Shown here: positions 9,864 to 33,550 of the stretch, piece by piece
Layout of the letters: each line of letters opens with the position of its first letter
Numbering within the stretch: position 1 is the first letter of the stretch
Assembly: GCA_008690995.1 (NCBI GenBank)
Contig: VRMN01000004.1
Span: forward strand, 372,001 to 436,000
Direction of reading: 5' to 3'
Origin: Porphyridium purpureum
Lineage: Eukaryota
DNA length: 64,000 bases
Translations under genes and position numbers: made by a program
The notes under the pieces: generated by a model
What the model saw: only the letters and a program-made list of their open reading frames with translations
The model's database searches: none
Told to the model about the DNA's origin: nothing

Positions 9864-10526
9864 CTATTTGAGGACGAGTGGTAACACAATCACTAGCACG
9901 AGCACAATGGCCGCAATCACAATTAAGACCATAAATGTCGTGTTCTGCCACCAAAACTTGTTCTTGGCCGCCTGGCTCGACCGCTGGAAATTGGAAGCCT
10001 CGTTGCGCATCACGTCGGTTTTGTCGACAAGCGTGTCTAGGTTTTCCTGGTTGTTCAGCGCTTGTTGAATATTGTTCTCCATCACGCCCTTCACCTCATC
10101 CACCTGGTATTTCACGCCTTCCAGTTGGTCCACGTTCCGCGCCTGGTCGTACGTTTCCATAAATGCTTTCACCATGCGCTTTCCAGACTTGTTCATCTCT
10201 CCGTCTCGCGCGCCGCGCACGGCTGGTCCAAACTCGGCGCTAAACTCGTCGCGAAACTCGGTGAGCAGCTGGAAGGCGGTGCGCTGCGGGTAGCTGGGAT
10301 CACACATGGTCATGTACACGCACACCGGGTCGCACTCAAAGTGAATGGTGCCGACGTCGCGATCGGTCACGGTGAGCCTTGCGTGCTCCGCGACCCGGCC
10401 CGACGCCAGCAACTTGCGGAACTTTCCCTCGTGCAACTCTGGGTCCGACGCCGAGCAGTACCACAGCAGTGGCACGCGGTCCTGCAGGCGCGCCACGGCC
10501 AAAAACCTCACATTCGGCTCGGCCAT
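9864..10526 (-). CDS. VAMP7: Longin R-SNARE, VAMP7/VAMP71-like
   Basis: Longin domain (YPQRTAFQLL), R-SNARE motif VDEVKGVMENNI, C-terminal TM helix after WWQN. Confidence 0.88.
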   Translation of the reverse strand: MAEPNVRFLAVARLQDRVPLLWYCSASDPELHEGKFRKLLASGRVAEHARLTVTDRDVGTIHFECDPVCVYMTMCDPSYPQRTAFQLLTEFRDEFSAEFGPAVRGARDGEMNKSGKRMVKAFMETYDQARNVDQLEGVKYQVDEVKGVMENNIQQALNNQENLDTLVDKTDVMRNEASNFQRSSQAAKNKFWWQNTTFMVLIVIAAIVLVLVIVLPLVLK

Positions 10527-11287
10527 CCTGTGCGCCTCTGTGCTGCCGGCCTGTTCGCCGCTGCGTTCCTAAATCCCGAGCACCGCTATCACCCACGACG
10601 CGCAAACACACGCTCGAGTACACGCGACCGCACACCGCGCTCCGTTTGTTTCCCGCTCCTGTGTCGTCTCCCCCCCGCCCGCTCCGACCGCGCTCCTTTT
10701 TTCTCTCGAACACACGCACATCCCACAACCACCACCTAACCTTTGACCCACTGCGACATCCCTCGCCACTCGCCCTGCCAATTGAGTCGCCAACTTCGAG
10801 CCGTCATCGCAGGTGTACACTATGAAACCCTAGCTTCACGTTGCGGCATGAACCTTCCGTAGCAAAAACGTGCCGTCTTGATAAGAAGCAAGTGCAGCGG
10901 CGAATCGGTTAACGGTCTACCGACTCATGACGCCACTAAGCCGCAACCGGGAACGGATAAGCAGCGTGGCTGAAAAGTTTGACTACTGATGACGGCTGCG
11001 GGCGTCGGTCAGTGGCTCGACCCCGGAAGAAAGGTGTGCGTCGGTATCGACTCTGCGCATGAAGCGCGACGCACAGCATGGCGTTCACGATGGTTGTGGG
11101 TTCGCAAATGAGTGCTGGTTGGCCAACGTCGTACGTTCAACGCTGGTGTGAAAACCTGGTTTTCGGTTCGCGGTTCACGTCAGGCGCGGCGCAATTTCAA
11201 AGTAACCGTTGTGTCATCAAAGGATAAGTCACTGTACCCCATCCTCGAATCGTTCACTGTACCCACCGTCGCTTTTGAAGCCTGGAT

Positions 11288-12084
11288 CGTGGAATTTTAG
11301 GGTTCCGCCCCGAGAGACGCCGTAGGGTTTTGAGTACAAAACCCTAGAAAGTTCTATGATGAAAGATTGTTCGAGAAGCGTGATGATCTCGGACCTGCGA
11401 AATGTTTGTCATTGTCGTTTTGTGTGACCTTGTGCAAAGGTCAAAGGCCGGCCGAAGCTTCTGGATTCGTTCTTGACGCGCCTTCCCGGCCATTTTTCGG
11501 ATACGTGGCCGGCTGTGGTTGCGAGTTGTGGAACGAATCAAAACCTGTGGTGGAAATTCGTCCTGTTGGAGAAATTTGTTCTCCCGTCCTTGCTGGAAAG
11601 AGCAAGGACGAAGGGTATAAAAGGACGAAGGGGCAAGCTGGTTCCCAGGAATTTCCAGGTCAAGGTAGAAGAAGAGGTAAGGGCAAATAGAATAAAAAGA
11701 GAATTGGTTAGTTGGATTGAGGCAGTCGTTGGAAGACTTGGGTTGGATTTGCGGGAGAGGCACGCTAGCGTGTTGTGCGAGCGGATATCGGTCTGGAGTG
11801 TTTTTAAAAAGGCAGCTGGGGTTTAAACGTACCTTCCATCACCCTTCACTTGTCAAGACCGGTCCACTCCCTCTCGTAGTCCCCTATAAGTTGAATTTTC
11901 TGTCCTCTCTTCCTTTCTAGCCACTTTTCTCTGATTGTCCTGCTTGTCCTTCCGTTCGTTTCGGTGTGTCGGTTCGTCGTCGGTTTGTCAGTTTCCGGGG
12001 TGTGGCGGTTTCCAGTTCCTGTTATCGGTGAAGCGGTCCGGTTTTGTTGATTCGGTTACAAAGCAGAAAGGGAGAAATTCCAAG
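11288..12084 (+). repeat. 5' LTR of copy 1
   Basis: Direct repeat of 16252-17048; one mismatch seen (G12036 vs A17000); TATAAAA at 11616 and AATAAA at 11691. Confidence 0.96.
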
Positions 12085-12102
12085 TGGTATCATCGCCCGG
12101 TT
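12085..12102 (+). other. Primer-binding site (initiator tRNA-Met)
   Basis: TGGTATCATCGCCCGGTT directly abuts the LTR; TGGTATCA core; final TT fits the A-rich T-loop of eukaryotic tRNAi. Confidence 0.85.
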
Positions 12103-12113
12103 GTTTGGAGAAA

Positions 12114-13061
12114 ATGGAAAGCCATGAAATGGAAATGAATGTCCCGCAGGAGAATGCGGCATGGATTGAGGCAGCTAATCAGCTGCATGCGCGCATTGCG
12201 GGACAGGAGATGATGATGGCACAAGTGCAGGAAGCGAATCGTAACCTCCATGAAATGATGCATGTTTTGTTGCGCCAGCAGACCGTGGCGTCTGGGTCTG
12301 GTGACAACGATCGTGCCATGGCCGCGTTAATTGGGCGCAGTTTGAGAAAGTTTGATGGTCAGCGTGACAAGCTCGTTGTCAATGAATGGCTGATGCGAAT
12401 GAAGAGCGACCTGGATATCTGCATGCCCGCAGATGCTTTGGACTCGCAGAAAGTGATTGTTGCAAGTCGCTTTTTCGAGAGGGACGCAGCGCTGCTTTGG
12501 GCAGCTCGTCCGGAGGAGCAGAGAAAGGGCCTTGCAGAGGCCGGATGGGATGCGTTCGCAAACTTCGTGCGCACAGCGTTTGAGCCGCCGCAGGCGCATT
12601 TGACAGCGCGCACCAATCTGTATCAGTTGAAGCAAGGGAAAATGACGGTCGCAGAATTTGAGCAGAATCTCAGGATGACAGCGTTATCAGTTGAAGATGT
12701 GACAGATGCAGAACTGAACACCATCTTCACGCTGGGCTTGAAGGAGAAACTGCGTATTGAGGTGGCCCGTCAGGACACAAGGACCTTGGAAGAATCACTG
12801 AAAGTTGCGTTGGCAGCTGAGCAGGTTGCAAAGTTCGGAGGAGATATGAGTCAAGTGATCAAGAACTCGTCATCGACTCATAGCAGGGCGTTCTCGTCGC
12901 ATTCTGGTAGCGCACCAATGGATTTGGGAGCCATGGACAAGCGGAAGTCTGGCAAGACCAAAGTGAAGTGTTACCATTGTGGAGAACGTGGACACATTAA
13001 GCCCAAATGCCCTAAATTGAAGGAGCGCTTGGCAGGTGGTCCGCCAGAGCCGGAAAACTAA
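12114..13061 (+). CDS. gag: Retrotransposon Gag (copy 1)
   Basis: Retrotrans_gag-like core (LYQLKQGKMTVAEF..F..GLK), APMDLG, CCHC knuckle CYHCGERGHIKPKC. Confidence 0.92.
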   Translation: MESHEMEMNVPQENAAWIEAANQLHARIAGQEMMMAQVQEANRNLHEMMHVLLRQQTVASGSGDNDRAMAALIGRSLRKFDGQRDKLVVNEWLMRMKSDLDICMPADALDSQKVIVASRFFERDAALLWAARPEEQRKGLAEAGWDAFANFVRTAFEPPQAHLTARTNLYQLKQGKMTVAEFEQNLRMTALSVEDVTDAELNTIFTLGLKEKLRIEVARQDTRTLEESLKVALAAEQVAKFGGDMSQVIKNSSSTHSRAFSSHSGSAPMDLGAMDKRKSGKTKVKCYHCGERGHIKPKCPKLKERLAGGPPEPEN

Positions 13062-13113
13062 GACCTCGAGAGCCAAGACAGGAGGAGATCTCGAGGGGAA
13101 TGGAGCCTCCTGT
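13052..13113 (+). other. Predicted -1 ribosomal frameshift signal (slippery heptamer plus H-type pseudoknot)
   Basis: G_GAA_AAC at 13052-13058; stem 1 CCTCGAGA/TCTCGAGG; stem 2 ACAGGAGG/CCTCCTGT. Confidence 0.8.
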
Positions 13114-16100
13114 AATGGGTGTTGTGGAAGGTGTTGCGCACGAGGGTGCGAGGTCAAGGCTCTTCTACAAACATGGGAAAGTGAGTGGTTCAAAAATCGA
13201 CTTCTTGATTGACAGTGGAGCGTCGCATAATTTCCTGGGGTCCCGATTCTTGGACGCAAGCGTAAAGTCCAGTTGCGATGAATGCATGGTCGAGCTTGCG
13301 GGAGGACAGAGAATGAAGGTGCACGGCCCCATTGTGCTTGCGGTGGACCTCGGTTTCTGGATAGGGAACGTCGAGTTTTATATCGGTCCCATTCGTATGG
13401 ATGCCATCTTAGGGTGGAAATGGCTCAAGATGGTGAATCCTAAGATTGATTGGCAGAAGGGACTGATGGAAACGAGGCCCGAGGGGAAGGAAATATGCAC
13501 GTTGGAAAATGTTGAAGAAGTGGTTCCCGAGCTTGACGGGAAAAATCAGAGCGTGGCTGCTTCGGAACACGAGTTGACTCACATGCCTATGCAAAGAGAC
13601 TGTGAGACGTGTGTCGTGGCGAAGATAAAGCGACGCCCGGCCCGAAGGCTGGAGAAAGATGTCAGTGCATTGTCATTCAATGATGAAGTCGGAATTGACT
13701 TGGTGGAGCCTGGGCGAAATGTGAAGTCGGTAGATGGTTCAAAGTTTATTTTGACGCATATCGACAGAGCCACAGGATGGGTGACATTGGCGGGGCTACG
13801 TGCGAAAACCCACACGGCGGTTGCGGACGCTTGGAAAAGTGTGCAAGCCGGGAGAGGATGGCCGAAGGTTTTGCGAACGGATGATGGGAATGAGTTCAAG
13901 GGAGATGTGGGGAGACTGGTGCGTGAACACCTCATAAAGCACGAGGTGGGGATTCCGTACAGGCCAAACAGTCATGCTGAACAGGAGCGGTTTCACCACA
14001 CGCTGAATCAGGGAATCCGTGCGAATCTTGTGCAGGCCGGACTCGGGAAGCGTTGGTTCATGCACGCCGCGCAGCATTTTGCGTTCATGACGAATAGACT
14101 TCACGTGGGCAGGAAGTCTGGAAAGACGCCGTTTGAATTACGACATGGTGAAAAATGGTCGCCGAGAAATCTTAGTTTGCCATTCGGGTGCAAGGTGGTC
14201 TACAAAGATGATCAGCCTGACAATAAGTATGCACCGCGAGGAAAAGTTGGCATTCTCGTCGGCGTTGGAGAGCATCCGATGGCAATTTTGGTGCTTCCTC
14301 GGGATGACTGGACGAGTGAGACCCCAAAAGTAATTCGCACTCAGGATTTTAAGGCATTTACCCATGAGTTCCCTTTAAAGGGAATTGAACGAGAGGTGGT
14401 GAGCCTGAGCCAGCAGGAAGAGTTGCCAGAAGTGGACGAACCATCCGCGGTTGAAGCGGTGCAGGACTTGGATCGTCGTATCGATGCTCTCAGAGCTAGA
14501 GAAGCGGAGCTTGAGAAAGAGATCGAGGCATTGAAAGTGAGAGTGGTTGACGAAGAACGGGCAGCAGGCACGGGTGGTCCAGTGACGATCCCACAGTTGA
14601 ACTTAACGACTTTGCTGAAAACTGGAGCGGCGTTGGCGTCTGAGCAAGGACGAGCCGCGATGGAAAAAGAAGTCAAATCCATGCTGAAATTTGGGGTATG
14701 GGATGAGAGTCCCTTGACGCTGGAGGAGGCCCGGAGGCAACCTGGTGCTCGTTTCGTACGCACACATTTCATTTTCGGTCTGAAATTTGCTGAGATGCCG
14801 GAAGAATTTCGCAAGGTGAAGTGCCGCTTGGTGGCCGGGGGAAACAGGATATGGGGGTCCGATGGAGCTGCGACGAATGACATTTTTGATTATGAGACGC
14901 CTGCTGGTTTGTCAGCTATCCGAATGATAATAGCTGTGGCTGCAATTCTGGGCCTTCAGATTGTTAGTTTCGACATCAGCTCGGCATACCTCCATGCGGA
15001 CCTGTCTGGGCCACCTACGTTTGCATACTTACCGCGTGAAATTTGTGATTCAAAAGACACAGTAGTCAGGCTGAGAAAGGCGCTGTATGGCTTGCCCAGG
15101 AGCGGCTCGGATTTCTCACAAGATGCTCGGAGGAGATTGCAAAAGTTCCAGTGGAAGCTCGTGCATGGTGAAAAGAATGTGTACGTCCGGAGAAATGCTG
15201 CAAGTTCGTCAGTTGCGTTGTTGGCTCTGTACGTGGATGATGGTCTATTAGCCTGTCGAGAGGAGGAACGCCCAGGAATCATCGAAGAATTGAAACAAGA
15301 GTTTCTCATAGAAAAAGCACCAGAACTATTGACGGAAGGAGGATCCTTGAGATTCCTGGGGACGAGCATTTCCCTCAAAAATGGGAGCGTGAGTTTGGCG
15401 AATCAAGAGTATCAAGATGTGGTCATTCGGGAATTTGAGCAGGATATTAGACGCGTATTGCGTGCCGTGAAGTCACCATCTGAGAAGCTAGATGGCGAGG
15501 AAGTTCTGAATTATCAAGTCATCTGGAAGACTTTGAAAGTAAGAGAACACGTCGGGAGGCTGATGTGGCTCGCCAGAACGGTTCGACCTGATATTGCGTA
15601 TGCAGTCGGTATGATTGCCCGGTACGTTGACAAGTGGAATGTGGCAGCAGAAAGGCTGCTCGTACGAGTCGTGCAGTATTTGAAAACACCTCGGGAAGCA
15701 TTGGAGTATCACGTGTTGGGGAATCTCAAGGAAGGCATCAGAGGGGTGAACATTCTTGGATACACGGATGCTGACTTTGCTGGTTGTCCAGAGAGTCGTG
15801 TGTCGACTTCTGGAAGAGCAACGTACTTAGTTGCTGGAGATTACAAGTACCTAGTGGATTGGTCTTCGAGAAAGCAGCGTTTCGTGAGCTCGTCGACTTC
15901 AGAGTCGGAGTTGGCTGCCCTAGAGGAAACTGTGCAACTCTCGTTGTTTCCTGCATTGTCTTTCTTGCGAAGTATACGTGACGGAGAGTTCTCGGTGATT
16001 TTGATGTGTGACAATCAAGCTGTGATGCGAGCAATAGAGATGGGGTACTCGCCAAAGTTGCATCATATGGCGATAACCCGAGCAACAGATTTGGCCTGGT

Positions 16101-16264
16101 TGCATCAGGTGTGCGAAAAGCAGAAACTTGTGAAACTGGCATTTGTGAAGACGGACGAAAATGTGGCGGACTTAATGACCAAGGCCTTATTTCCGGAGGG
16201 CCACATTAAGTGCTGGGAGAAGTTACGCGTCCCTCAGACCGGAAGGAGGAGCGTGGAATTTTAG
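13052..16264 (+). CDS. pol: Pol polyprotein PR-IN-RT-RNaseH (copy 1), in -1 frame relative to gag; first ATG at 13100
   Basis: LIDSGASHNF protease; HHCC and DDE integrase; RVT_2 motifs KCRLVA, DISSAYL, KALYGL, YVDD; Copia RNase H motifs GYTDADFAG, CDNQA, ADLMTKAL. Confidence 0.95.
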   Translation, partial: GKLRPREPRQEEISRGMEPPVMGVVEGVAHEGARSRLFYKHGKVSGSKIDFLIDSGASHNFLGSRFLDASVKSSCDECMVELAGGQRMKVHGPIVLAVDLGFWIGNVEFYIGPIRMDAILGWKWLKMVNPKIDWQKGLMETRPEGKEICTLENVEEVVPELDGKNQSVAASEHELTHMPMQRDCETCVVAKIKRRPARRLEKDVSALSFNDEVGIDLVEPGRNVKSVDGSKFILTHIDRATGWVTLAGLRAKTHTAVADAWKSVQAGRGWPKVLRTDDGNEFKGDVGRLVREHLIKHEVGIPYRPNSHAEQERFHHTLNQGIRANLVQAGLGKRWFMHAAQHFAFMTNRLHVGRKSGKTPFELRHGEKWSPRNLSLPFGCKVVYKDDQPDNKYAPRGKVGILVGVGEHPMAILVLPRDDWTSETPKVIRTQDFKAFTHEFPLKGIEREVVSLSQQEELPEVDEPSAVEAVQDLDRRIDALRAREAELEKEIEALKVRVVDEERAAGTGGPVTIPQLNLTTLLKTGAALASEQGRAAMEKEVKSMLKFGVWDESPLTLEEARRQPGARFVRTHFIFGLKFAEMPEEFRKVKCRLVAGGNRIWGSDGAATNDIFDYETPAGLSAIRMIIAVAAILGLQIVSFDISSAYLHADLSGPPTFAYLPREICDSKDTVVRLRKALYGLPRSGSDFSQDARRRLQKFQWKLVHGEKNVYVRRNAASSSVALLALYVDDGLLACREEERPGIIEELKQEFLIEKAPELLTEGGSLRFLGTSISLKNGSVSLANQEYQDVVIREFEQDIRRVLRAVKSPSEKLDGEEVLNYQVIWKTLKVREHVGRLMWLARTVRPDIAYAVGMIARYVDKWNVAAERLLVRVVQYLKTPREALEYHVLGNLKEGIRGVNILGYTDADFAGCPESRVSTSGRATYLVAGDYKYLVDWSSRKQRFVSSSTSESELAALEETVQLSLFPALSFLRSIRDGEFSVILMCDNQAVMRAIEMGYSPKLHHMAITRATDLAWLHQVCEKQKLVKLAFVKTDENVADLMTKALFPEGHIKCWEKLRVPQTGRRSVEF
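16241..16251 (+). other. Polypurine tract (copy 1)
   Basis: GGAAGGAGGAG immediately before the 3' LTR, inside the pol coding sequence. Confidence 0.85.
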
Positions 16265-17048
16265 GGTTCCGCCCCGAGAGACGCCGTAGGGTTTTGAGTA
16301 CAAAACCCTAGAAAGTTCTATGATGAAAGATTGTTCGAGAAGCGTGATGATCTCGGACCTGCGAAATGTTTGTCATTGTCGTTTTGTGTGACCTTGTGCA
16401 AAGGTCAAAGGCCGGCCGAAGCTTCTGGATTCGTTCTTGACGCGCCTTCCCGGCCATTTTTCGGATACGTGGCCGGCTGTGGTTGCGAGTTGTGGAACGA
16501 ATCAAAACCTGTGGTGGAAATTCGTCCTGTTGGAGAAATTTGTTCTCCCGTCCTTGCTGGAAAGAGCAAGGACGAAGGGTATAAAAGGACGAAGGGGCAA
16601 GCTGGTTCCCAGGAATTTCCAGGTCAAGGTAGAAGAAGAGGTAAGGGCAAATAGAATAAAAAGAGAATTGGTTAGTTGGATTGAGGCAGTCGTTGGAAGA
16701 CTTGGGTTGGATTTGCGGGAGAGGCACGCTAGCGTGTTGTGCGAGCGGATATCGGTCTGGAGTGTTTTTAAAAAGGCAGCTGGGGTTTAAACGTACCTTC
16801 CATCACCCTTCACTTGTCAAGACCGGTCCACTCCCTCTCGTAGTCCCCTATAAGTTGAATTTTCTGTCCTCTCTTCCTTTCTAGCCACTTTTCTCTGATT
16901 GTCCTGCTTGTCCTTCCGTTCGTTTCGGTGTGTCGGTTCGTCGTCGGTTTGTCAGTTTCCGGGGTGTGGCGGTTTCCAGTTCCTGTTATCGGTGAAGCGA
17001 TCCGGTTTTGTTGATTCGGTTACAAAGCAGAAAGGGAGAAATTCCAAG
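16252..17048 (+). repeat. 3' LTR of copy 1
   Basis: Repeat of 11288-12084. Confidence 0.96.
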
Positions 17049-17237
17049 TGGATTAGGGGGAAAGGGTGTACAGTGTGTGTGTGCTGGCATCGTGTACAGT
17101 GGTGAGGACGACAAAGGAATGAAACTGAGTGGGAGAAGGCAAGAGCGTAGGAAGAGAGAGAGAGGGAGAGGGAGAAAGGGAAAGGAGTTTGGTTGGGTGT
17201 GGGGTGTGTGGAAGGAAGAGGCGGAGGAGCGAGCGGG

Positions 17238-18515
17238 ATGGCGGAGAAGCCGGAGCACGAGAATGAGGACAAGGAGGTGCGGCCGCTCGATGAGGGCGAC
17301 ATTGCGTTGCTGAAGACGTACGGGCTGGGGCCGTACGCGGCGTCGGTGAGGAAGCTGGAGGACGAAATCAAGGCGCAGGCCACAAAGGTGGATGAGCTGT
17401 CGGGGATCAAGGAGTCAGATACGGGCATGGCGCCGCCGGCGCAGTGGGATTTGGTGCAGGATAAGCAGGTCATGCAGGAGGAGCAGCCGCTGCAGGTCGC
17501 GCGCTGCACAAAGATCATTGACGCAAACACAGACGACGCAAAGTACATGATCAATGTCAAGCAGATTGCAAAGTACGTCGTCGGACTGGGCGAGCGCGTG
17601 GCGCCCACGGATATCGAGGAAGGGATGCGCGTGGGCGTGGAAAGGAACAAGTATCTGATCCAGATCCCGCTGCCGCCCAAGATCGACGCGTCGGTCACCA
17701 TGATGACGGTGGAGGAAAAGCCGGACATTACATACGCCGACGTAGGCGGCGCGAAGGACTCAATTGAGAAAATTCGCGAGGTGGTCGAGCTGCCGCTGTT
17801 GAGCCCGGAGAAATTTGTCGCACTGGGGATCGATCCGCCCAAGGGCGTGCTGCTGTATGGCCCGCCAGGCACGGGCAAAACGCTGCTTGCGCGAGCGGTC
17901 GCAAACCGCACCGACGCGTGCTTTATCCGCGTCATTGGCTCGGAGCTCGTGCAAAAATACACCGGCGAAGGTGCGCGAATGGTGCGGGAGCTGTTCCAAT
18001 TGGCGCGCAGCAAGCGTGCTTGTATTGTATTCTTCGATGAAATCGACGCCATCGGAGGTGCGCGGTTCGACGACGGAGCGGGTGGGGACAACGAAGTGCA
18101 GAGAACCATGCTTGAGATCGTGAACCAGCTGGACGGCTTCGACGCGCGAGGGAATATCAAAGTGGTGATGGCCACAAATCGTCCAGATACGCTAGACCCG
18201 GCGCTGCTTCGGCCCGGGCGTCTCGATCGCAAAATTGAGGTTGGCCTTCCGGATCTCGAAGGCCGCACCCAGATCCTCAAGATTCATGCGCGCAGCATGA
18301 ATTGTGAACGCGACGTGCGATTTGAGCTTCTCGCGCGCCTGTGCCCAAACACAACTGGTGCGGATCTGCGCAGTGTGTGCACGGAGGCCGGTATGTATGC
18401 GATTCGGGCGCGAAGAAAGACTGCCACCGAAAAGGACTTCTTGGAGTCAATCAACAAGGTGATCAAGGGCTATCAGAAGTTTTCGTCAACAGGTCTGTAC
18501 ATGAACTATAATTGA
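17238..18515 (+). CDS. PSMC2: 26S proteasome AAA-ATPase Rpt1
   Basis: [39 protein letters not shown]. Confidence 0.96.
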
Positions 18516-21001: not shown

Positions 21002-22120
21002 ATGGATGAGCGGTTGATTGCACAGACGTGCTTTCCGTCCCGGTATGTGCAGGGACCGGCGGCATTGGGAATGATTCCGCGCATCGCGAAAGGGTTTGGC
21101 GGTCGCGCGTTGATGATCACAGATCCGTTTGTCGCAGATAAGGTGCTCCCTACCGTGCAGGATAAGCTGCAGGGCGCAGATTTGGTGATCGAGAAGTTTG
21201 GCGGTGAGTGCACCGATGATGAAATCGATCGGCTCGTGGCCATTGGCAAGGAGCGCCAGTGCGAGTCTGTGATCGGCTTTGGCGGCGGGAAGACGCTGGA
21301 TACCGCAAAGGCCGTGTCTGCGTACATGCAGGTCCAGATCATCATTGTGCCCACACTCGCGTCCACAGACGCGCCCTGCTCGGCGCGCGCCGTCATCTAC
21401 AAGCCCACGGGCGAGGTCGTGCGGTACCTTGACCTGCCAAAGAATCCGGACGTCGTTTTGCTGGACACAGAGCTCATCGTCAAGGCGCCCGTCCGCTTCC
21501 TTATCTCTGGCATTGGCGACGCGCTCAGCACGTGGTTCGAGGCAGAAAGCTGCATGACCAAGGGCGCCGCCAACAGCACGTGCGGCGCCGGCCACTTGCA
21601 TCCAGGAACCATGACCGCCTACGCGCTCGCCAAGCTTTGCTACGAAACCCTTTGCGAGTACGGTACGCTTGCCGTCATGAGCGCCAAAGCAGGTGCTTGC
21701 ACCCCGGCGTTCGAGAAGGTGGTCGAGGCAAACACGTTGCTTAGCGGCCTAGGCTTTGAGAGCGGCGGGCTCGGCGCCGCACACGCCATCCACAATGGCT
21801 TGTCGGAGCTCGAGGAATGTCACAAGTACATGCACGGCGAAAAGGTCGCTTTTGGCGTACTGGCCGGACTGTTCTTCGCGGATAAGTCACAGGAAGTCAT
21901 TGACAAAGTGTACAAGCTGTGTGAAGACGTCGGTTTGCCCACCACGCTCGCCGACCTTGGTGTCAAGGAAGTCACGGAAGAGAAGCTGAAAATCGTCGCC
22001 GAGCGCACATGTGTGCCAGAGGAGACCATTCACAACGAGCTTCGTCCAGGCCTGCCGTCTCAGGTGATCCAGGCCATCAAAGCCGCTGACGCCGAGGGCC
22101 GACGCCGCAAGGGCATGTAG
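21002..22120 (+). CDS. gldA: Glycerol dehydrogenase (bacterial GldA type)
   Basis: PSRYVQG, GGGKTLDTAKA, PTLASTDAPCS, GDALSTWFEA, SGLGFESGGLGAAHAIHNG, HGEKVAFG. Confidence 0.93.
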   Translation: MDERLIAQTCFPSRYVQGPAALGMIPRIAKGFGGRALMITDPFVADKVLPTVQDKLQGADLVIEKFGGECTDDEIDRLVAIGKERQCESVIGFGGGKTLDTAKAVSAYMQVQIIIVPTLASTDAPCSARAVIYKPTGEVVRYLDLPKNPDVVLLDTELIVKAPVRFLISGIGDALSTWFEAESCMTKGAANSTCGAGHLHPGTMTAYALAKLCYETLCEYGTLAVMSAKAGACTPAFEKVVEANTLLSGLGFESGGLGAAHAIHNGLSELEECHKYMHGEKVAFGVLAGLFFADKSQEVIDKVYKLCEDVGLPTTLADLGVKEVTEEKLKIVAERTCVPEETIHNELRPGLPSQVIQAIKAADAEGRRRKGM

Positions 22121-22475: not shown

Positions 22476-23729
22476 TTACTTGTAGAAATGGAAGTCGCCA
22501 CTATCCTTCTTGATATTCTTTTTGTACGCCGCCTCAAAGTCGGCAGGCAGCACCTTGTACCTCGAGCGACGGACAGCAAGCATGCCCGCCTCCTGGCAGA
22601 TCGCGGTAATCTCAGCCCCGCTGAGCTTCTCTGGCCTGCTCACATAATCTTCCAGATCTACGTCCTCGCTCAAGTTCATTTTCGCTGTGACCACTTGGAA
22701 AATCAGGCGCTTCTGTCTCCTATCAGGCAGCGGGAATTCAATTTTGCGGTCGAGTCGACCCGGTCGAAGCAGCGCCGGGTCCAGCGTGTCGATACGGTTG
22801 GTGCACATGATCACCTTGACGTTGGTGTGCTGGTCGAATCCGTCCATCTGATTCAGCAGCTCCATGAGAATGCGCTGCACCTCGCGATCTGCGCCAGTCT
22901 GTGCATCAAAGCGCTTTGTGGCGATCGCGTCGATTTCATCGATGAAAATAATTGCCGGTTCGTTCTCGCGGGCGAGGCGAAACACGTCGCGCACCATGCG
23001 CGGCCCTTCGCCGAGGTATTTTTGCACAAATTCAGAGCCCACCACTCGGATGAAGCTGGCGGTGGTCTGCGCCGCGACCGCTTTCGCAAGCATCGTTTTC
23101 CCTGTTCCGGGAGGGCCATACAACAACACGCCGCGCGGAGGATCGATTCCGATTTGCTTGTACAAGTCCGCGTGCGTCAGAGGCAACTCCACAGCCTCGC
23201 GAATCTCCTGCTTCTGAATATCGCAGCCTCCGATATCGGCAAAAGTCACGTCTGGCTTCTCGCCGGCTCCTACCATGGAAATGGTGGAGTCGGCCTCGGG
23301 CGGCAAAATGTCCACCAGAGCGTTCGAGTGCCGGTGCAGCGCAACGGAGGAGGAAGGCCTCAAGAGCTCACGATTCAGCGTGGACAAGATACGAACGTGG
23401 TAGTTGGACCCCGTCGTTGATCCCACGATCCCTGTGTTGGCGTCCACCATTTCGAGAAACTGGCCGATAACCAACGGCACCGACTGGATCCGCTTGACCT
23501 CCTCCTGAGCGTGCAAAAGCTCATTCTTCAAGTTTTTCATCTCGTCCTTGATGTAACCCTCCTGGATCTCAAGAAACTCTAGCTGCCGCTGCAACGCCTT
23601 GAGCCGAACGTACAGATCCTCCGACCCGGCCGCACTGGGGGTTGGCACGTGCTGCACAGCCGCCGCCGTATCCATTTTCTTGGCGTCGTCCCCGTGCACG
23701 TTCAGTGCAGGCGCCGTGTCGACCTCCAT
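22476..23729 (-). CDS. PSMC4: 26S proteasome AAA-ATPase Rpt3
   Basis: [34 protein letters not shown]-terminal FHFYK (HbYX). Confidence 0.96.
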
Positions 23730-26642: not shown

Positions 26643-26962
26643 GAGCGTTGAGTACGTGGTGAGAGCACTTGGGGTCTGCCCCTGGCAGAAGTGGACGTCG
26701 AGCGCGGGGGAAGGCGTAAATGTATGTAAGATATAATGTGAGATGTTGTCATGTTTCGATGCGAATACGAAGGTGAACCGGTATGGAGGTGAATGATCCT
26801 CGAAGTAAAAGAAATCCGGTGGATTCCAAGATGAGTTGCGAAGAACGGCATTCCGACGAGATCGCTTTTCCCCTTGTTTACTATTCTCAGCACCGAATCC
26901 TACGCTCAAGTGCCGCTCCGCCAGAAAACATGCCGGTCGCCCGGCTGATCACCCGCGCACGC

Positions 26963-27385
26963 TCAGTAGTTTCCCTTGCGCAGGTTGTAGCCGACCGTGC
27001 CAAAGATGAGGGTGGCGAAGAGACCCACGTGCCACATTCCCATGAGCAGCCAGAACGGATCCGCGAGCTGCGGGCCCTGTGGCCAGCGCGAGAGGTTGTC
27101 TGAGATGGACGCCACGAACGCCGGCGTGAGGCCCTTTCCGTCCAGGAGCGGGATGTTTGACGGCACGGACGAGGGCACGACCCATCCAATCAGCGCGAGC
27201 CCAATCACGAGCGGGTTTGCGTCGAACGAGCTGCCCTCGGAGATCTCGTACCCGTCCTGCATCTTGAGCACCGCCCGCTGGCTGCGAGGCGCGTGCACAC
27301 TGCGCTGGTGCGCTCCCACCACACGCCGCGCGCTGACGCGCGACGCCGTCAACGATCCAGCTGCTGCGTTCACGAAAGCCGCCAT
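26963..27385 (-). CDS. psaO: Photosystem I subunit O with plastid transit peptide
   Basis: MAAFV transit peptide; GWVVPSS..IP..GLT..F..I...L..WPQGP..DPFWLL..WHVGLF. Confidence 0.92.
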   Translation of the reverse strand: MAAFVNAAAGSLTASRVSARRVVGAHQRSVHAPRSQRAVLKMQDGYEISEGSSFDANPLVIGLALIGWVVPSSVPSNIPLLDGKGLTPAFVASISDNLSRWPQGPQLADPFWLLMGMWHVGLFATLIFGTVGYNLRKGNY

Positions 27386-27789
27386 CCTACTCCTTTGCAA
27401 CTCTGACCCTCGTCTCCTCCACACTCACTCACCGATACTCCCACTCTCCCTCAATCTTCCCCTCTGCTTACCTCACGTCAAACTTGGAGCTAAAGTATCG
27501 AAGTCCTCCTTCCCACTCGCCTCGCTCAAGAATCCCCAAAACATGCCCCGAACGTGATCCCTATAAAATCCAACCCGTTTTGTTACAAAACAACTCAAGC
27601 TCCTGCCAAGCCCGCGCCAGTTTGCTACTTATCTCCGCGCTCGACCTCGCACGAGATGTGCACTGTACCTTTGTCGCCCCCACAACCCCAAAACGCCAAA
27701 ACGCACAACCAGTCGCACCCCAGTTCTCTCCACTGTACCCCCCCTCTTTCTCCTTCGTTTCGAGTTGTCCAAACGGGTTCGAACGTCAG

Positions 27790-28586
27790 CGTGGAATTTT
27801 AGGGTTCCGCCCCGAGAGACGCCGTAGGGTTTTGAGTACAAAACCCTAGAAAGTTCTATGATGAAAGATTGTTCGAGAAGCGTGATGATCTCGGACCTGC
27901 GAAATGTTTGTCATTGTCGTTTTGTGTGGCCTTGTGCAAAGGTCAAAGGCCGGCCGAAGCTTCTGGATTCGTTCTTGACGCGCCCTCCCGGCCATTTTCC
28001 GGATACGTGGCCGGCTGTGGTTGCGAGTTGTGGAACGAATCAAAACCTGTGGTGGAAATTCGTCCTGTTGGAGAAATTTGTTCTCCCGTCCTTGCTGGAA
28101 AGAGCAAGGACGAAGGGTATAAAAGGACGAAGGGGCAAGCTGGTTCCCAGGAATTTCCAGGTCAAGGTAGAAGAAGAGGTAAGGGCAAATAGAATAAAAA
28201 GAGAATTGGTTAGTTGGATTGAGGCAGTCGTTGGAAGACTTGGGTTGGATTTGCGGGAGAGGCACGCTAGCGTGTTGTGCGAGCGGATATCGGTCTGGAG
28301 TGTTTTTAAAAAGGCAGCTGGGGTTTAAACGTACCTTCCATCACCCTTCACTTGTCAAGACCGGTCCACTCCCTCTCGTAGTCCCCTATAAGTTGAATTT
28401 TCTGTCCTCTCTTCCTTTCTAGCCACTTTTCTCTGATTGTCCTGCTTGTCCTTCCGTTCGTTTCGGTGTGTCGGTTCGTCGTCGGTTTGTCAGTTTCCGG
28501 GGTGTGGCGGTTTCCAGTTCCTGTTATCGGTGAAGCGGTCCGGTTTTGTTGATTCGGTTACAAAGCAGAAAGGGAGAAATTCCAAG
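27790..28586 (+). repeat. 5' LTR of copy 2
   Basis: No difference from 32754-33550 seen by eye. Confidence 0.96.
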
Positions 28587-28615
28587 TGGTATCATCGCCC
28601 GGTTGTTTGGAGAAA

Positions 28616-29563
28616 ATGGAAAGCCATGAAATGGAAATGAATGTCCCGCAGGAGAATGCGGCATGGATTGAGGCAGCTAATCAGCTGCATGCGCGCATTG
28701 CGGGACAGGAGATGATGATGGCACAAGTGCAGGAAGCGAATCGTAACCTCCATGAAATGATGCATGTTTTGTTGCGCCAGCAGACCGTGGCGTCTGGGTC
28801 TGGTGACAACGATCGTGCCATGGCCGCGTTAATTGGGCGCAGTTTGAGAAAGTTTGATGGTCAGCGTGACAAGCTCGTTGTCAATGAATGGCTGATGCGA
28901 ATGAAGAGCGACCTGGATATCTGCATGCCCGCAGATGCTTTGGACTCGCAGAAAGTGATTGTTGCAAGTCGCTTTTTCGAGAGGGACGCAGCGCTGCTTT
29001 GGGCAGCTCGTCCGGAGGAGCAGAGAAAGGGCCTTGCAGAGGCCGGATGGGATGCGTTCGCAAACTTCGTGCGCACAGCGTTTGAGCCGCCGCAGGCGCA
29101 TTTGACAGCGCGCACCAATCTGTATCAGTTGAAGCAAGGGAAAATGACGGTCGCAGAATTTGAGCAGAATCTCAGGATGACAGCGTTATCAGTTGAAGAT
29201 GTGACAGATGCAGAACTGAACACCATCTTCACGCTGGGCTTGAAGGAGAAACTGCGTATTGAGGTGGCCCGTCAGGACACAAGGACCTTGGAAGAATCAC
29301 TGAAAGTTGCGTTGGCAGCTGAGCAGGTTGCAAAGTTCGGAGGAGATATGAGTCAAGTGATCAAGAACTCGTCATCGACTCATAGCAGGGCGTTCTCGTC
29401 GCATTCTGGTAGCGCACCAATGGATTTGGGAGCCATGGACAAGCGGAAGTCTGGCAAGACCAAAGTGAAGTGTTACCATTGTGGAGAACGTGGACACATT
29501 AAGCCCAAATGCCCTAAATTGAAGGAGCGCTTGGCAGGTGGTCCGCCAGAGCCGGAAAACTAA
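28616..29563 (+). CDS. gag: Retrotransposon Gag (copy 2)
   Basis: Protein identical to copy 1. Confidence 0.92.
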   Translation: MESHEMEMNVPQENAAWIEAANQLHARIAGQEMMMAQVQEANRNLHEMMHVLLRQQTVASGSGDNDRAMAALIGRSLRKFDGQRDKLVVNEWLMRMKSDLDICMPADALDSQKVIVASRFFERDAALLWAARPEEQRKGLAEAGWDAFANFVRTAFEPPQAHLTARTNLYQLKQGKMTVAEFEQNLRMTALSVEDVTDAELNTIFTLGLKEKLRIEVARQDTRTLEESLKVALAAEQVAKFGGDMSQVIKNSSSTHSRAFSSHSGSAPMDLGAMDKRKSGKTKVKCYHCGERGHIKPKCPKLKERLAGGPPEPEN

Positions 29564-32500
29564 GACCTCGAGAGCCAAGACAGGAGGAGATCTCGAGGGG
29601 AATGGAGCCTCCTGTAATGGGTGTTGTGGAAGGTGTTGCGCACGAGGGTGCGAGGTCAAGGCTCTTCTACAAACATGGGAAAGTGAGTGGTTCAAAAATC
29701 GACTTCTTGATTGACAGTGGAGCGTCGCATAATTTCCTGGGGTCCCGATTCTTGGACGCAAGCGTAAAGTCCAGTTGCGATGAATGCATGGTCGAGCTTG
29801 CGGGAGGACAGAGAATGAAGGTGCACGGCCCCATTGTGCTTGCGGTGGACCTCGGTTTCTGGATAGGGAACGTCGAGTTTTATATCGGTCCCATTCGTAT
29901 GGATGCCATCTTAGGGTGGAAATGGCTCAAGATGGTGAATCCTAAGATTGATTGGCAGAAGGGACTGATGGAAACGAGGCCCGAGGGGAAGGAAATATGC
30001 ACGTTGGAAAATGTTGAAGAAGTGGTTCCCGAGCTTGACGGGAAAAATCAGAGCGTGGCTGCTTCGGAACACGAGTTGACTCACATGCCTATGCAAAGAG
30101 ACTGTGAGACGTGTGTCGTGGCGAAGATAAAGCGACGCCCGGCCCGAAGGCTGGAGAAAGATGTCAGTGCATTGTCATTCAATGATGAAGTCGGAATTGA
30201 CTTGGTGGAGCCTGGGCGAAATGTGAAGTCGGTAGATGGTTCAAAGTTTATTTTGACGCATATCGACAGAGCCACAGGATGGGTGACATTGGCGGGGCTA
30301 CGTGCGAAAACCCACACGGCGGTTGCGGACGCTTGGAAAAGTGTGCAAGCCGGGAGAGGATGGCCGAAGGTTTTGCGAACGGATGATGGGAATGAGTTCA
30401 AGGGAGATGTGGGGAGACTGGTGCGTGAACACCTCATAAAGCACGAGGTGGGGATTCCGTACAGGCCAAACAGTCATGCTGAACAGGAGCGGTTTCACCA
30501 CACGCTGAATCAGGGAATCCGTGCGAATCTTGTGCAGGCCGGACTCGGGAAGCGTTGGTTCATGCACGCCGCGCAGCATTTTGCGTTCATGACGAATAGA
30601 CTTCACGTGGGCAGGAAGTCTGGAAAGACGCCGTTTGAATTACGACATGGTGAAAAATGGTCGCCGAGAAATCTTAGTTTGCCATTCGGGTGCAAGGTGG
30701 TCTACAAAGATGATCAGCCTGACAATAAGTATGCACCGCGAGGAAAAGTTGGCATTCTCGTCGGCGTTGGAGAGCATCCGATGGCAATTTTGGTGCTTCC
30801 TCGGGATGACTGGACGAGTGAGACCCCAAAAGTAATTCGCACTCAGGATTTTAAGGCATTTACCCATGAGTTCCCTTTAAAGGGAATTGAACGAGAGATG
30901 GTGAGCCTGAGCCAGCAGGAAGAGTTGCCAGAAGTGGACGAACCATCCGCGGTTGAAGCGGTGCAGGACTTGGATCGTCGTATCGATGCTCTCAGAGCTA
31001 GAGAAGCGGAGCTTGAGAAAGAGATCGAGGCATTGAAAGTGAGAGTGGTTGACGAAGAACGGGCAGCAGGCACGGGTGGTCCAGTGACGATCCCACAGTT
31101 GAACTTAACGACTTTGCTGAAAACTGGAGCGGCGTTGGCGTCTGAGCAAGGACGAGCCGCGATGGAAAAAGAAGTCAAATCCATGCTGAAATTTGGGGTA
31201 TGGGATGAGAGTCCCTTGACGCTGGAGGAGGCCCGGAGGCAACCTGGTGCTCGTTTCGTACGCACACATTTCATTTTCGGTCTGAAATTTGCTGAGATGC
31301 CGGAAGAATTTCGCAAGGTGAAGTGCCGCTTGGTGGCCGGGGGAAACAGGATATGGGGGTCCGATGGAGCTGCGACGAATGACATTTTTGATTATGAGAC
31401 GCCTGCTGGTTTGTCAGCTATCCGAATGATAATAGCTGTGGCTGCAATTCTGGGCCTTCAGATTGTTAGTTTCGACATCAGCTCGGCATACCTCCATGCG
31501 GACCTGTCTGGGCCACCTACGTTTGCATACTTACCGCGTGAAATTTGTGATTCAAAAGACACAGTAGTCAGGCTGAGAAAGGCGCTGTATGGCTTGCCCA
31601 GGAGCGGCTCGGGTTTCTCACAAGATGCTCGGAGGAGATTGCAAAAGTTCCAGTGGAAGCTCGTGCATGGTGAAAAGAATGTGTACGTCCGGAGAAATGC
31701 TGCAAGTTCGTCAGTTGCGTTGTTGGCTCTGTACGTGGATGATGGTCTATTAGCCTGTCGAGAGGAGGAACGCCCAGGAATCATCGAAGAATTGAAACAA
31801 GAGTTTCTCATAGAAAAAGCACCAGAACTATTGACGGAAGGAGGATCCTTGAGATTCCTGGGGACGAGCATTTCCCTCAAAAATGGGAGCGTGAGTTTGG
31901 CGAATCAAGAGTATCAAGATGTGGTCATTCGGGAATTTGAGCAGGATATTAGACGCGTATTGCGTGCCGTGAAGTCACCATCTGAGAAGCTAGATGGCGA
32001 GGAAGTTCTGAATTATCAAGTCATCTGGAAGACTTTGAAAGTAAGAGAACACGTCGGGAGGCTGATGTGGCTCGCCAGAACGGTTCGACCTGATATTGCG
32101 TATGCAGTCGGTATGATTGCCCGGTACGTTGACAAGTGGAATGTGGCAGCAGAAAGGCTGCTCGTACGAGTCGTGCAGTATTTGAAAACACCTCGGGAAG
32201 CATTGGAGTATCACGTGTTGGGGAATCTCAAGGAAGGCATCAGAATGGTGAACATTCTTGGATACACGGATGCTGACTTTGCTGGTTGTCCAGAGAGTCG
32301 TGTGTCGACTTCTGGAAGAGCAACGTACTTAGTTGCTGGAGATTACAAGTACCTAGTGGATTGGTCTTCAAGAAAGCAGCGTTTCGTGAGCTCGTCGACT
32401 TCAGAGTCGGAGCTGGCCGCCCTAGAGGAAACTGTGCAACTCTCGTTGTTTCCTGCATTGTCTTTCTTGCGAAGTATACGTGACGGAGAGTTCTCGGTGA

Positions 32501-32766
32501 TTTTGATGTGTGACAATCAAGCTGTGATGCGAGCAATAGAGATGGGGTACTCGCCAAAGTTGCATCATATGGCGATAACCCGAGCAACAGATTTGGCCTG
32601 GTTGCATCAGGTGTGCGAAAAGCAGAAACTTGTGAAACTGGCATTTGTGAAGACGGACGAAAATGTGGCGGACTTAATGACCAAGGCCTTATTTCCGGAG
32701 GGCCACATTAAGTGCTGGGAGAAGTTACGCGTCCCTCAGACCGGAAGGAGGAGCGTGGAATTTTAG
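29554..32766 (+). CDS. pol: Pol polyprotein (copy 2); first ATG at 29602; frameshift signal 29554-29615
   Basis: Differs from copy 1 at three residues (V>M, D>G, G>M). Confidence 0.95.
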   Translation, partial: GKLRPREPRQEEISRGMEPPVMGVVEGVAHEGARSRLFYKHGKVSGSKIDFLIDSGASHNFLGSRFLDASVKSSCDECMVELAGGQRMKVHGPIVLAVDLGFWIGNVEFYIGPIRMDAILGWKWLKMVNPKIDWQKGLMETRPEGKEICTLENVEEVVPELDGKNQSVAASEHELTHMPMQRDCETCVVAKIKRRPARRLEKDVSALSFNDEVGIDLVEPGRNVKSVDGSKFILTHIDRATGWVTLAGLRAKTHTAVADAWKSVQAGRGWPKVLRTDDGNEFKGDVGRLVREHLIKHEVGIPYRPNSHAEQERFHHTLNQGIRANLVQAGLGKRWFMHAAQHFAFMTNRLHVGRKSGKTPFELRHGEKWSPRNLSLPFGCKVVYKDDQPDNKYAPRGKVGILVGVGEHPMAILVLPRDDWTSETPKVIRTQDFKAFTHEFPLKGIEREMVSLSQQEELPEVDEPSAVEAVQDLDRRIDALRAREAELEKEIEALKVRVVDEERAAGTGGPVTIPQLNLTTLLKTGAALASEQGRAAMEKEVKSMLKFGVWDESPLTLEEARRQPGARFVRTHFIFGLKFAEMPEEFRKVKCRLVAGGNRIWGSDGAATNDIFDYETPAGLSAIRMIIAVAAILGLQIVSFDISSAYLHADLSGPPTFAYLPREICDSKDTVVRLRKALYGLPRSGSGFSQDARRRLQKFQWKLVHGEKNVYVRRNAASSSVALLALYVDDGLLACREEERPGIIEELKQEFLIEKAPELLTEGGSLRFLGTSISLKNGSVSLANQEYQDVVIREFEQDIRRVLRAVKSPSEKLDGEEVLNYQVIWKTLKVREHVGRLMWLARTVRPDIAYAVGMIARYVDKWNVAAERLLVRVVQYLKTPREALEYHVLGNLKEGIRMVNILGYTDADFAGCPESRVSTSGRATYLVAGDYKYLVDWSSRKQRFVSSSTSESELAALEETVQLSLFPALSFLRSIRDGEFSVILMCDNQAVMRAIEMGYSPKLHHMAITRATDLAWLHQVCEKQKLVKLAFVKTDENVADLMTKALFPEGHIKCWEKLRVPQTGRRSVEF

Positions 32767-33550
32767 GGTTCCGCCCCGAGAGACGCCGTAGGGTTTTGAG
32801 TACAAAACCCTAGAAAGTTCTATGATGAAAGATTGTTCGAGAAGCGTGATGATCTCGGACCTGCGAAATGTTTGTCATTGTCGTTTTGTGTGGCCTTGTG
32901 CAAAGGTCAAAGGCCGGCCGAAGCTTCTGGATTCGTTCTTGACGCGCCCTCCCGGCCATTTTCCGGATACGTGGCCGGCTGTGGTTGCGAGTTGTGGAAC
33001 GAATCAAAACCTGTGGTGGAAATTCGTCCTGTTGGAGAAATTTGTTCTCCCGTCCTTGCTGGAAAGAGCAAGGACGAAGGGTATAAAAGGACGAAGGGGC
33101 AAGCTGGTTCCCAGGAATTTCCAGGTCAAGGTAGAAGAAGAGGTAAGGGCAAATAGAATAAAAAGAGAATTGGTTAGTTGGATTGAGGCAGTCGTTGGAA
33201 GACTTGGGTTGGATTTGCGGGAGAGGCACGCTAGCGTGTTGTGCGAGCGGATATCGGTCTGGAGTGTTTTTAAAAAGGCAGCTGGGGTTTAAACGTACCT
33301 TCCATCACCCTTCACTTGTCAAGACCGGTCCACTCCCTCTCGTAGTCCCCTATAAGTTGAATTTTCTGTCCTCTCTTCCTTTCTAGCCACTTTTCTCTGA
33401 TTGTCCTGCTTGTCCTTCCGTTCGTTTCGGTGTGTCGGTTCGTCGTCGGTTTGTCAGTTTCCGGGGTGTGGCGGTTTCCAGTTCCTGTTATCGGTGAAGC
33501 GGTCCGGTTTTGTTGATTCGGTTACAAAGCAGAAAGGGAGAAATTCCAAG
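32754..33550 (+). repeat. 3' LTR of copy 2
   Basis: Repeat of 27790-28586. Confidence 0.96.

What the first reader, a model, noticed from the sequence alone, without database searches (positions are those of the whole stretch)
12114..16264. Chimeric retrotransposon: Gypsy-like Gag and protease on a Copia IN-RT-RNaseH
Seen: domain order is PR-IN-RT-RH, and the RT/RNase H motifs are Copia-type (KCRLVA, KALYGL, YVDD, RPDIAYAV, GYTDADFAG, ADLMTKAL). But Gag (LKQG..TV.EF, PMDLG before one CCHC knuckle) and protease (LIDSGASHNF...DAILG..WL...NPKIDW) carry signatures I associate with Ty3/Gypsy elements. The Copia-type protease pattern (W..DSGA..HM) is absent, and gag and pol are separate frames. Inference: an old recombination between superfamilies that is still active. 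I recall that chimeric copia-like elements have been reported in red algae, so novelty needs checking.
Basis: partly seen in the sequence, partly recalled or inferred. Interest (0 to 1): 0.82.

Follow-up and report, generated by a model that had tools for sequence, protein, structure and literature searches.

The report
Gypsy-shell, Copia-engine red algal retrotransposon
This intact, recently spread jumping gene of a red alga has a shell protein and protease of the Gypsy type but copying and inserting enzymes of the Copia type, likely from an old gene swap between the two superfamilies, and it inserts with unusual CG...AG ends.

Summary
Observation confirmed and extended. The element spans 11288-17048, with a near-identical second copy at 27790-33550. 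Identical proteins are annotated in Porphyridium purpureum. Gag and protease are Ty3/Gypsy-type by Pfam, ESM Atlas, PDB profile hits and the ILG motif; integrase, RT and RNase H are Copia-type (RVT_2, order PR-IN-RT-RH). Five Porphyridium families share this build. In an RT-RNase H tree they form one clade (95/88) inside a divergent Copia group whose other members have Copia-type proteases. A module swap is the best reading; the root, hence the direction, is not proven. Three additions: a predicted -1 frameshift (slippery heptamer plus pseudoknot, 0 of 2000 shuffles); LTR ends CG...AG with TG...CA recessed two bases, which suggests insertion without end trimming; and a Myb-like integrase tail in relatives, absent here. 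Contigs from independent runs exclude misassembly and show many other insertions. My 10 library searches found no description. This scan noted the same kind of chimera in other genomes (unchecked AI notes); no sequence link was found.

The parts
11283..11287 (+). Left target-site duplication (TGGAT)
   Evidence: Repeated at 17049-17053; an empty-site contig in run X1 skips 5766 bases with 5 shared letters
11288..12084 (+). 5' LTR, 797 bp, begins CG then TG, ends CA then AG; 10-bp imperfect terminal inverted repeat
   Evidence: a 797-nt contig of run X9 covers exactly this span
12085..12102 (+). Primer-binding site directly after the terminal AG; likely initiator tRNA-Met type
   Evidence: Starts TGGTATCA; tRNA type is recalled knowledge, the host tRNA was not available (one search found none in the window)
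12114..13061 (+). gag, 315 aa: N-terminal coiled coil, Ty3/Arc-type capsid, PMDLG, one CCHC knuckle
   Evidence: Pfam; Atlas; PDB profile; model and fold search
13052..13113 (+). Predicted -1 frameshift signal: heptamer G_GAA_AAC (13052-13058) before the gag stop, 5-nt spacer, H-type pseudoknot (stems 13064-13071/13089-13096 and 13078-13085/13106-13113)
   Evidence: two perfect 8-bp stems, 0 of 2000 dinucleotide shuffles; pol is in the -1 frame
13160..13460 (+). Aspartic protease, Gypsy type (DSG ... ILG); bounds approximate
   Evidence: Pfam; only PDB hits are ASPRV1; protease tree
13568..14390 (+). Integrase, Copia type, with a compact zinc finger H-x3-H-x6-C-x2-C, D-x34-E core and SH3-like tail; end approximate
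14447..14554 (+). Likely coiled coil after the integrase, at the place where relatives carry a Myb-like domain
   Evidence: alignment; weak coiled-coil Pfam hits; no Myb-profile hit in the window protein
14660..16264 (+). Reverse transcriptase (RVT_2) and RNase H, Copia type; the frame ends inside the 3' LTR
16241..16251 (+). Polypurine tract directly before the terminal CG
16252..17048 (+). 3' LTR, 797 bp, 1 difference from the 5' LTR
17049..17053 (+). Right target-site duplication (TGGAT)
27790..33550 (+). Second full copy, both frames open, identical LTRs, own 5-bp duplication GTCAG (27785-27789, 33551-33555), same CG...AG ends

Best explanation
This is an intact, recently multiplied LTR retrotransposon whose Gag and protease are Ty3/Gypsy-type and whose integrase, RT and RNase H are Ty1/Copia-type, likely because an ancestor in a divergent Copia lineage had its gag-protease block replaced by that of a Gypsy element. 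Shown: the domain content, the shared build in five Porphyridium families, the ends, the target duplications and many other insertion junctions. Inferred: the RNA is translated to Gag and, by a -1 frameshift at the heptamer and pseudoknot, to Gag-Pol; a Gypsy-type capsid and protease package and mature the Copia enzymes; reverse transcription is primed at the PBS and the PPT, giving a linear DNA that ends CG...AG; the integrase joins these ends without removing the two bases beyond CA and leaves a 5-bp duplication.
For: Gag: Ty3_capsid and Retrotrans_gag above cut-off, no Copia gag family; 9 Atlas rows shown of 30 hits carry Retrotrans_gag, Ty3_capsid, PNMA, RTL4 or only zf-CCHC, none a Copia gag family; a 5-sequence Gag profile hits dArc1 1.1e-5, dArc2 4e-4, Ty3 Gag 2.9e-3 and PEG10 0.011 over the capsid, and Copia capsid protein only at the zinc knuckle. 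Protease: ILG motif, where Llorens 2009 gives LLS for Ty1/Copia and ILG for the others; 6 mixed-build proteases and the Gypsy control lie on one side of a branch against 25 Copia proteases (SH-aLRT 98). RT-RH: the five families form one 14-row clade (95/88; one change in 96% of 200 bootstrap trees) inside a Copia group with LLS proteases; the integrase lies in the same compact-zinc-finger Copia group (100/100). Relative distance: the window protease is nearer to the Gypsy control (path 3.04) than to sister family P0059 (4.37), while its RT is 7.4 from that control and about 2.3 from sister families; RT is normally the slower domain (own knowledge), so shared ancestry from the Copia/Gypsy split fits poorly. 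Ends: 8 of 8 left and 19 of 19 right terminal junction rows include CG and AG. Single contigs span gag to RNase H in 4 of 8 runs laid, from 3 studies.
Against: The root is not fixed: with one Gypsy RT as outgroup, neither a root on the canonical Copia stem (p-AU 0.57) nor one on the mixed-build stem (p-AU 0.45) is rejected. Only one full Gypsy polyprotein was on hand (P0054, E 1.4e-5), and it was found with this very query, so its closeness is selected. No Gag tree was built. One origin is weak in the integrase tree (39/88; 40% of bootstraps) and was not recovered in the 34-row quick tree. Asp_protease_2 is not fully diagnostic: P0137, with an LLS protease, also passes its cut-off on the N-terminal half. 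The fold search favours dArc1 (Z 9.9, rmsd 10.2, 144 aligned), but a Ty1 capsid domain ranks third (Z 7.8) and Copia capsid scores 6.5. Frameshifting, expression and the integration chemistry are untested; the empty-site contig is a single record at depth 4.3.
Confidence: 0.76

Rival explanations
1. No swap: this clade is the earliest branch of Copia and kept the ancestral Gag and ILG protease shared with Gypsy, while all other Copia evolved the LLS type once.
For: ILG is the motif of all non-Copia proteases; on the unrooted tree one change separates this clade from the rest; a root on its stem is not rejected, and the free tree attached the Gypsy RT near this group.
Against: The canonical-stem root has the best likelihood found (about 5 log units above this root, not significant); midpoint rooting falls between canonical and compact-finger Copia; Gag and protease keep 25% and 29% identity to a Gypsy element whose RT shows no match.
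Confidence: 0.11
2. Several independent captures: families A/B took their gag-protease from one Gypsy donor and families C/D/E from another, so swapping is recurrent in this alga and not a single founding event.
For: A/B proteases are nearer to the Gypsy control than to C/D/E; weak monophyly in the integrase tree; a second recombinant type, P0217, has canonical Copia gag-PR-IN on an RT of this clade.
Against: RT-RH monophyly of 95/88 with no Copia-type gag inside; Gags of families A, B, D and E align with shared capsid motifs.
Confidence: 0.09
3. Ordinary but divergent Copia element whose Gag and protease only look Gypsy-like to weak profiles, or an assembly or nesting artefact.
For: Protease scores are near the Pfam cut-offs; PDB protease hits are E 0.004-0.03.
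Against: Separate methods agree; two intact copies with their own target duplications; single contigs in other runs; 16 and 17 cluster members for families A and B.
Confidence: 0.04

Closest known systems
Ty1/Copia (Pseudoviridae)
   Same: PR-IN-RT-RH order, RVT_2 RT, Copia-type RNase H and integrase with SH3-like tail, 5-bp target duplication.
   Different: No Copia gag or Pol_BBD protease; ILG instead of LLS; compact integrase zinc finger; predicted -1 pseudoknot frameshift, whereas the Copia strategies listed in PMC5580714 (passages) are Ty1 frameshifting (+1 per PMC5911963), readthrough, single ORF and splicing; CG...AG ends.
Ty3/Gypsy (Metaviridae), incl. the domesticated PEG10, PNMA, Arc and ASPRV1
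   Same: Capsid, PMDLG before one knuckle, ILG protease; PEG10 also uses a pseudoknot-stimulated frameshift (PMC5009743, one passage).
   Different: RT is RVT_2, with no match to Ty3 RT among the 60 PDB rows shown or to the Gypsy control; integrase lies before RT.
GalEa clade Copia, incl. red algal PyRE10G and CoPorcru1/2
   Same: Copia order, red algal host, Met-type PBS, two ORFs in some members (PMC3587641 passages).
   Different: GalEa have TG...CA ends, a DTG(C/A) protease and an H-x4-H-x30-C-x2-C integrase finger; this element has CG...AG, DSG...ILG and H-x3-H-x6-C-x2-C. PyRE10G is reported to differ in its integrase (title only seen). No GalEa sequence was available for a tree.
Gmr1-type Gypsy elements
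   Same: Gypsy-type gag and protease with integrase before RT (Llorens 2009 section 12).
   Different: Gmr1 are Gypsy elements with a moved integrase; here RT and RNase H are Copia.
Non-TGCA plant LTR elements (Tos17 TG-GA, TARE1 TA-CA, AcCOPIA1 TG-TA, TGTT, AACA)
   Same: Non-canonical terminal dinucleotides with normal target duplications (PMC5659011 passages).
   Different: Those change one end in place; here both ends differ and an intact TG...CA lies two bases inside each end. CG-AG is not among the types named in the passages read.

Membership tests
Ty1/Copia | pol order PR-IN-RT-RH | tested here: met
Ty1/Copia | RT-RH groups with Copia (RVT_2) | tested here: met
   RVT_2 1.7e-18, no RVT_1; trees; 60-86 bits to Copia controls against 18 to the Gypsy control
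Ty1/Copia | Copia-type integrase | tested here: met
   SH3_retrovirus E 0.0023; groups with integrases of LLS-protease Copia elements at 100/100; no Gypsy integrase was in that tree
Ty1/Copia | Copia-type Gag (Retrotran_gag_2 and kin) | tested here: not met
   absent at E up to 1; present in controls P0006 and P0217
Ty1/Copia | Copia-type protease (LLS motif, Pol_BBD) | tested here: not met
   DAILG; a profile of 16 canonical Copia proteases scores it 9.2 bits; motif definition
Ty3/Gypsy | Ty3-type capsid and ILG protease | tested here: met
Ty3/Gypsy | Capsid fold nearer to Gypsy-derived than to Copia capsids | tested here: inconclusive
   dArc1 Z 9.9, Ty1 Drt2 7.8, PNMA2 7.5, PEG10 7.3, Copia 6.5 on a model of pLDDT 63
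Ty3/Gypsy | RVT_1 RT with RT_RNaseH, integrase last | tested here: not met
Ty3/Gypsy | Gag and protease nested in a named Gypsy lineage such as chromoviruses | not testable with these tools
   only one Gypsy polyprotein could be fetched
GalEa clade | TG...CA ends, DTG(C/A) protease, H-x4-H-x30-C-x2-C finger | tested here: not met
   against passages
GalEa clade | RT-RH placement in the GalEa clade | not tested
   no named GalEa sequence among the fetched proteins

The most novel reading that the evidence does not exclude
An undescribed, active LTR retrotransposon lineage born from a Gypsy x Copia gene swap: Gypsy capsid, protease and -1 frameshift pseudoknot drive Copia enzymes, whose integrase inserts untrimmed CG...AG ends without the terminal CA held essential for retroviral-type integrases, and is steered in sister families by a captured Myb DNA-binding domain.
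Probability: 0.45. Interest if true: 0.85.

Novelty: new variant of a known kind. Interest (0 to 1): 0.68.

Why it matters
The Copia/Gypsy split is the main line in LTR retroelement classification, and whole elements are usually filed by RT alone. A living multi-family lineage with a Gypsy capsid-protease and Copia enzymes shows that the particle module and the replication module can be exchanged across that line and still work. REXdb removed elements with signs of chimeric origin as likely mispredictions (PMC6317226 passage), so such lineages may be missed as a rule; LTR finders that expect TG...CA would also misplace these ends and miss the target duplications. The element is intact and multi-copy in a cultured microalga, so capsid-enzyme compatibility, the frameshift and integration without a terminal CA can be tested directly.

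Tried and rejected
No host genome was held, so copy number and the ends of the sister families could not be read. Scans for related loci found nothing: metagenome contigs and viral contigs. A Gag-profile search of longer proteins gave 2 hits, both of this host. Single-sequence AlphaFold of Gag was unusable (pLDDT 41). One search was dominated by the control's RT; it only confirms that P0054 is Gypsy (Ty3 RT at 7e-54). The IS481 hit of the integrase (4e-13) is not special: the ordinary Copia control scores higher (1.5e-17). The top PDB hit of Gag to Copia VLP protein rests on the zinc-knuckle region. P0217 first looked like a sister with ancestral Copia gag, but its integrase groups with canonical Copia, so it is a separate recombinant and says little about the ancestral state. 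Atlas search with a whole family B protein: 10 rows shown of 30, all RVT_2, none listing a Gypsy gag family; small clusters are not searched. GC3 does not mark the junction (gag 0.59, PR 0.59, IN 0.55, RT 0.52, RH 0.55). Expression is not shown: all 8 runs laid were contigs and may hold DNA. TG...CA termini were rejected because no target duplication flanks them in either copy. Gao et al. 2003 on gag-pol recoding was not held; passages sought on Ty1 versus Ty3 end processing did not cover it. The Foldseek PDB search was not obtained.
Full report
1. Observation. They lie in a complete LTR element at 11288-17048; a second copy lies at 27790-33550 and differs at 14 of the 5757 positions compared, with 3 amino-acid changes and no stops. 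The LTRs are 797 bp and differ at 1 position in copy 1 and at none in copy 2. Proteins 99-100% identical to the window's Pol are annotated in Porphyridium purpureum; this family (A) has a cluster of 16 members and a sister family (B, 67% Pol identity) has 17. Single contigs run from gag to RNase H in 4 of 8 public runs laid, from 3 studies, so the build is not an assembly artefact.

2. The 5' block is Gypsy-type. Gag passes the cut-offs of Retrotrans_gag and Ty3_capsid and hits no Copia gag family; the protease hits Asp_protease_2 (above cut-off), gag-asp_proteas and RVP_2 (below) and not Pol_BBD. A Copia control (P0006) and a Gypsy control (P0054) give the opposite and the same pattern. The ESM Atlas neighbours of Gag are Retrotrans_gag, Ty3_capsid, RTL4 and PNMA clusters at 0.93-0.96 (9 rows shown of 30). 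A profile of 5 Gags hits dArc1, dArc2, Ty3 Gag and PEG10 over the capsid and Copia VLP protein only at the knuckle. The only PDB hits of the protease are 6 ASPRV1 sequences (that ASPRV1 and Arc derive from Gypsy is my own knowledge; for PEG10 and PNMA see PMC5009743). Llorens et al. 2009 (PMC2774666; passages and part 1 of 3 of section 12 read) give LLS as the C-terminal protease motif of Ty1/Copia and ILG for the other families; the element has ILG. The only outside hit of family B's Gag-PR among 7997 candidates was the Phytophthora Gypsy polyprotein P0054. The fold search confirms a capsid but separates the superfamilies only weakly.

3. The 3' block is Copia-type. Order PR-IN-RT-RH, RVT_2 and no RVT_1. 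RT scores 60-86 bits against Copia controls and 18 against the Gypsy control. The integrase has a compact finger, H-x3-H-x6-C-x2-C, and an SH3-like tail.

4. Relatives and trees. A profile search of 1.84 billion representatives returned the best 150. I Pfam-scanned 35 of them and 27 more proteins, 7 of which are cluster members. The mixed build recurs in P0059 (family C), P0061/P0210 (D) and P0069/P0213 (E), all from P. purpureum, at 24-33% Gag identity for D and E. An unnamed metagenome protein, P0123/P0216, has the ILG protease and the compact integrase but no RT in the record. An RT-RH FastTree of 150 of 155 rows (5 dropped for under 60% cover) splits canonical Copia (72 rows) from a divergent group (78 rows) that holds the window. 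In a careful tree of 48 rows picked from these, the five mixed families fall in one 14-row clade (95/88), inside the divergent group (100/100) whose other members with a readable protease have LLS; 9 of the 14 rows lack the 5' block and are unscored. Six mixed proteases group with the Gypsy control against 25 Copia proteases (SH-aLRT 98); a profile of them scores the control 42.5 bits and the Copia proteases at most 12.1; the control was selected by this query. In the integrase tree (38 rows) the window lies with compact-finger Copia at 100/100, but the mixed families are only weakly one group. Rooting with the single Gypsy RT is unresolved. The strongest argument for transfer is relative distance: Gag and protease stay alignable with a Gypsy element whose RT is not.

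5. Gag-Pol expression. pol is in the -1 frame to gag. The last gag codons hold G_GAA_AAC; 5 bases on begin two interleaved perfect 8-bp stems, an H-type pseudoknot. None of 2000 shuffles reached this score, and one other site in the internal region did. P0059 and P0061 are annotated as single proteins, so other families may differ. The frameshift is a prediction.

6. Ends. Both copies have a 5-bp duplication only if the element is read CG...AG; TG and CA lie two bases inside. An empty-site contig in run X1 skips exactly element plus 5 bases (one record, depth 4.3), and a contig of run X9 spans exactly the 797-bp LTR. Of the loose-end rows at the termini, 8 of 8 left and 19 of 19 right include the extra two bases; some rows are the same insertion seen in several runs, 6 rows away from the termini were left out, and 4 rows were not shown by the tool. 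The PBS starts directly after AG and the PPT ends directly before CG, so the predicted linear cDNA ends are the integrated ends. Retroviral integrases trim two bases after CA before joining (own knowledge; PMC11054761 passages say only recessed HIV ends were active). I infer that this integrase skips trimming and joins a terminal G. Whether this came with the swap is unknown.

7. Integrase tail. Family B has a Myb-like domain between integrase and RT (Pfam 7.4e-5, just below cut-off); so do P0062 (3.3e-5) and P0059 (0.036), and a profile of these three finds P0074, P0068 and P0072, weakly P0061, and nothing in the window protein or 11 other proteins. The window has a likely coiled coil there. 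A targeting role, like a chromodomain, is a guess.

8. What is known. Ten library searches gave no paper that describes a Copia element with Gypsy gag-protease, CG...AG ends or this family; most subscription journals are not held, and no supplements were read, so Repbase-type entries or supplementary tables may hold it. Read as passages: PMC2806351, PMC3587641, PMC5445492, PMC2836005, PMC5580714, PMC5659011, PMC6317226, PMC5911963, PMC5009743, PMC11054761. They report GalEa elements in red algae, PyRE10G with a gypsy-like integrase (title only), Gmr1, CoDi-A chromodomains and recombination within Copia. The scan's own notes list three similar chimeras in other genomes and one reverse-type chimera; look-ups by sequence found no link to them. 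They are unchecked and are not counted as support.

9. Verdict. A real, intact, recently spread element with Gypsy-type Gag-PR on Copia IN-RT-RH, part of a radiation of at least five families in one red alga. It works like an LTR retrotransposon with Copia enzymes but fails the Gag and protease tests for Copia and the RT test for Gypsy. Swap between superfamilies 0.85 in all (one event 0.76, several 0.09), ancestral retention 0.11. New variant of a known kind; interest 0.68.

Noticed in passing
P0217 / P0071 / P0095 / P0073 (P0217 and P0071 from P. purpureum): A second recombinant type: canonical Copia gag, protease and integrase on an RT-RNase H that is sister to the mixed-build clade (P0095 was not in the RT trees).
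   Followed up: partly
P0015 residues 807-856; P0059, P0062, P0068, P0072, P0074: Myb-like domain at the integrase C-terminus; P0005, P0060, P0061 and P0063 carry a cysteine-rich stretch in that region; P0093 and P0109 have a zf-CW hit.
   Followed up: partly
P0059-P0205 (78-row group): A large, mostly unnamed Copia group with weak RVT_2 scores and often a compact integrase finger; P0102, P0104 and P0105 have CCCH zinc fingers upstream, and P0075 has an AAA domain after RNase H.
   Followed up: partly
window 10526-11288 and 17048-17238; 26642-27790 and 33550-33979: Both copies sit between genes; copy 1 lies between the divergent starts of a VAMP-like gene and a proteasome ATPase gene, 190 bp upstream of the latter.
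   Followed up: no
P0001, P0023, P0002 and kin: Host gene models fuse or duplicate parts of the element, or join gag and pol across the frameshift, so public annotations hide the two-frame build.
   Followed up: partly
window 17238-18515 and 22476-23729: Two intronless 26S proteasome AAA-ATPase genes on opposite strands, 72-73% alike over short stretches.
   Followed up: no
window 40632-42113 and 42229-43986: Two neighbouring genes that look like SPX-domain proteins (by recalled motif).
   Followed up: no
window 21002-22120 and 53919-56513: Genes that look like a glycerol dehydrogenase and a phosphate acetyltransferase of bacterial type (by recall), possible horizontal acquisitions.
   Followed up: no
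window 11510-12064: LTR contigs are far deeper than internal ones in RNA run X19; may reflect solo LTRs or LTR-driven transcripts, but contig depth cannot show this.
   Followed up: no
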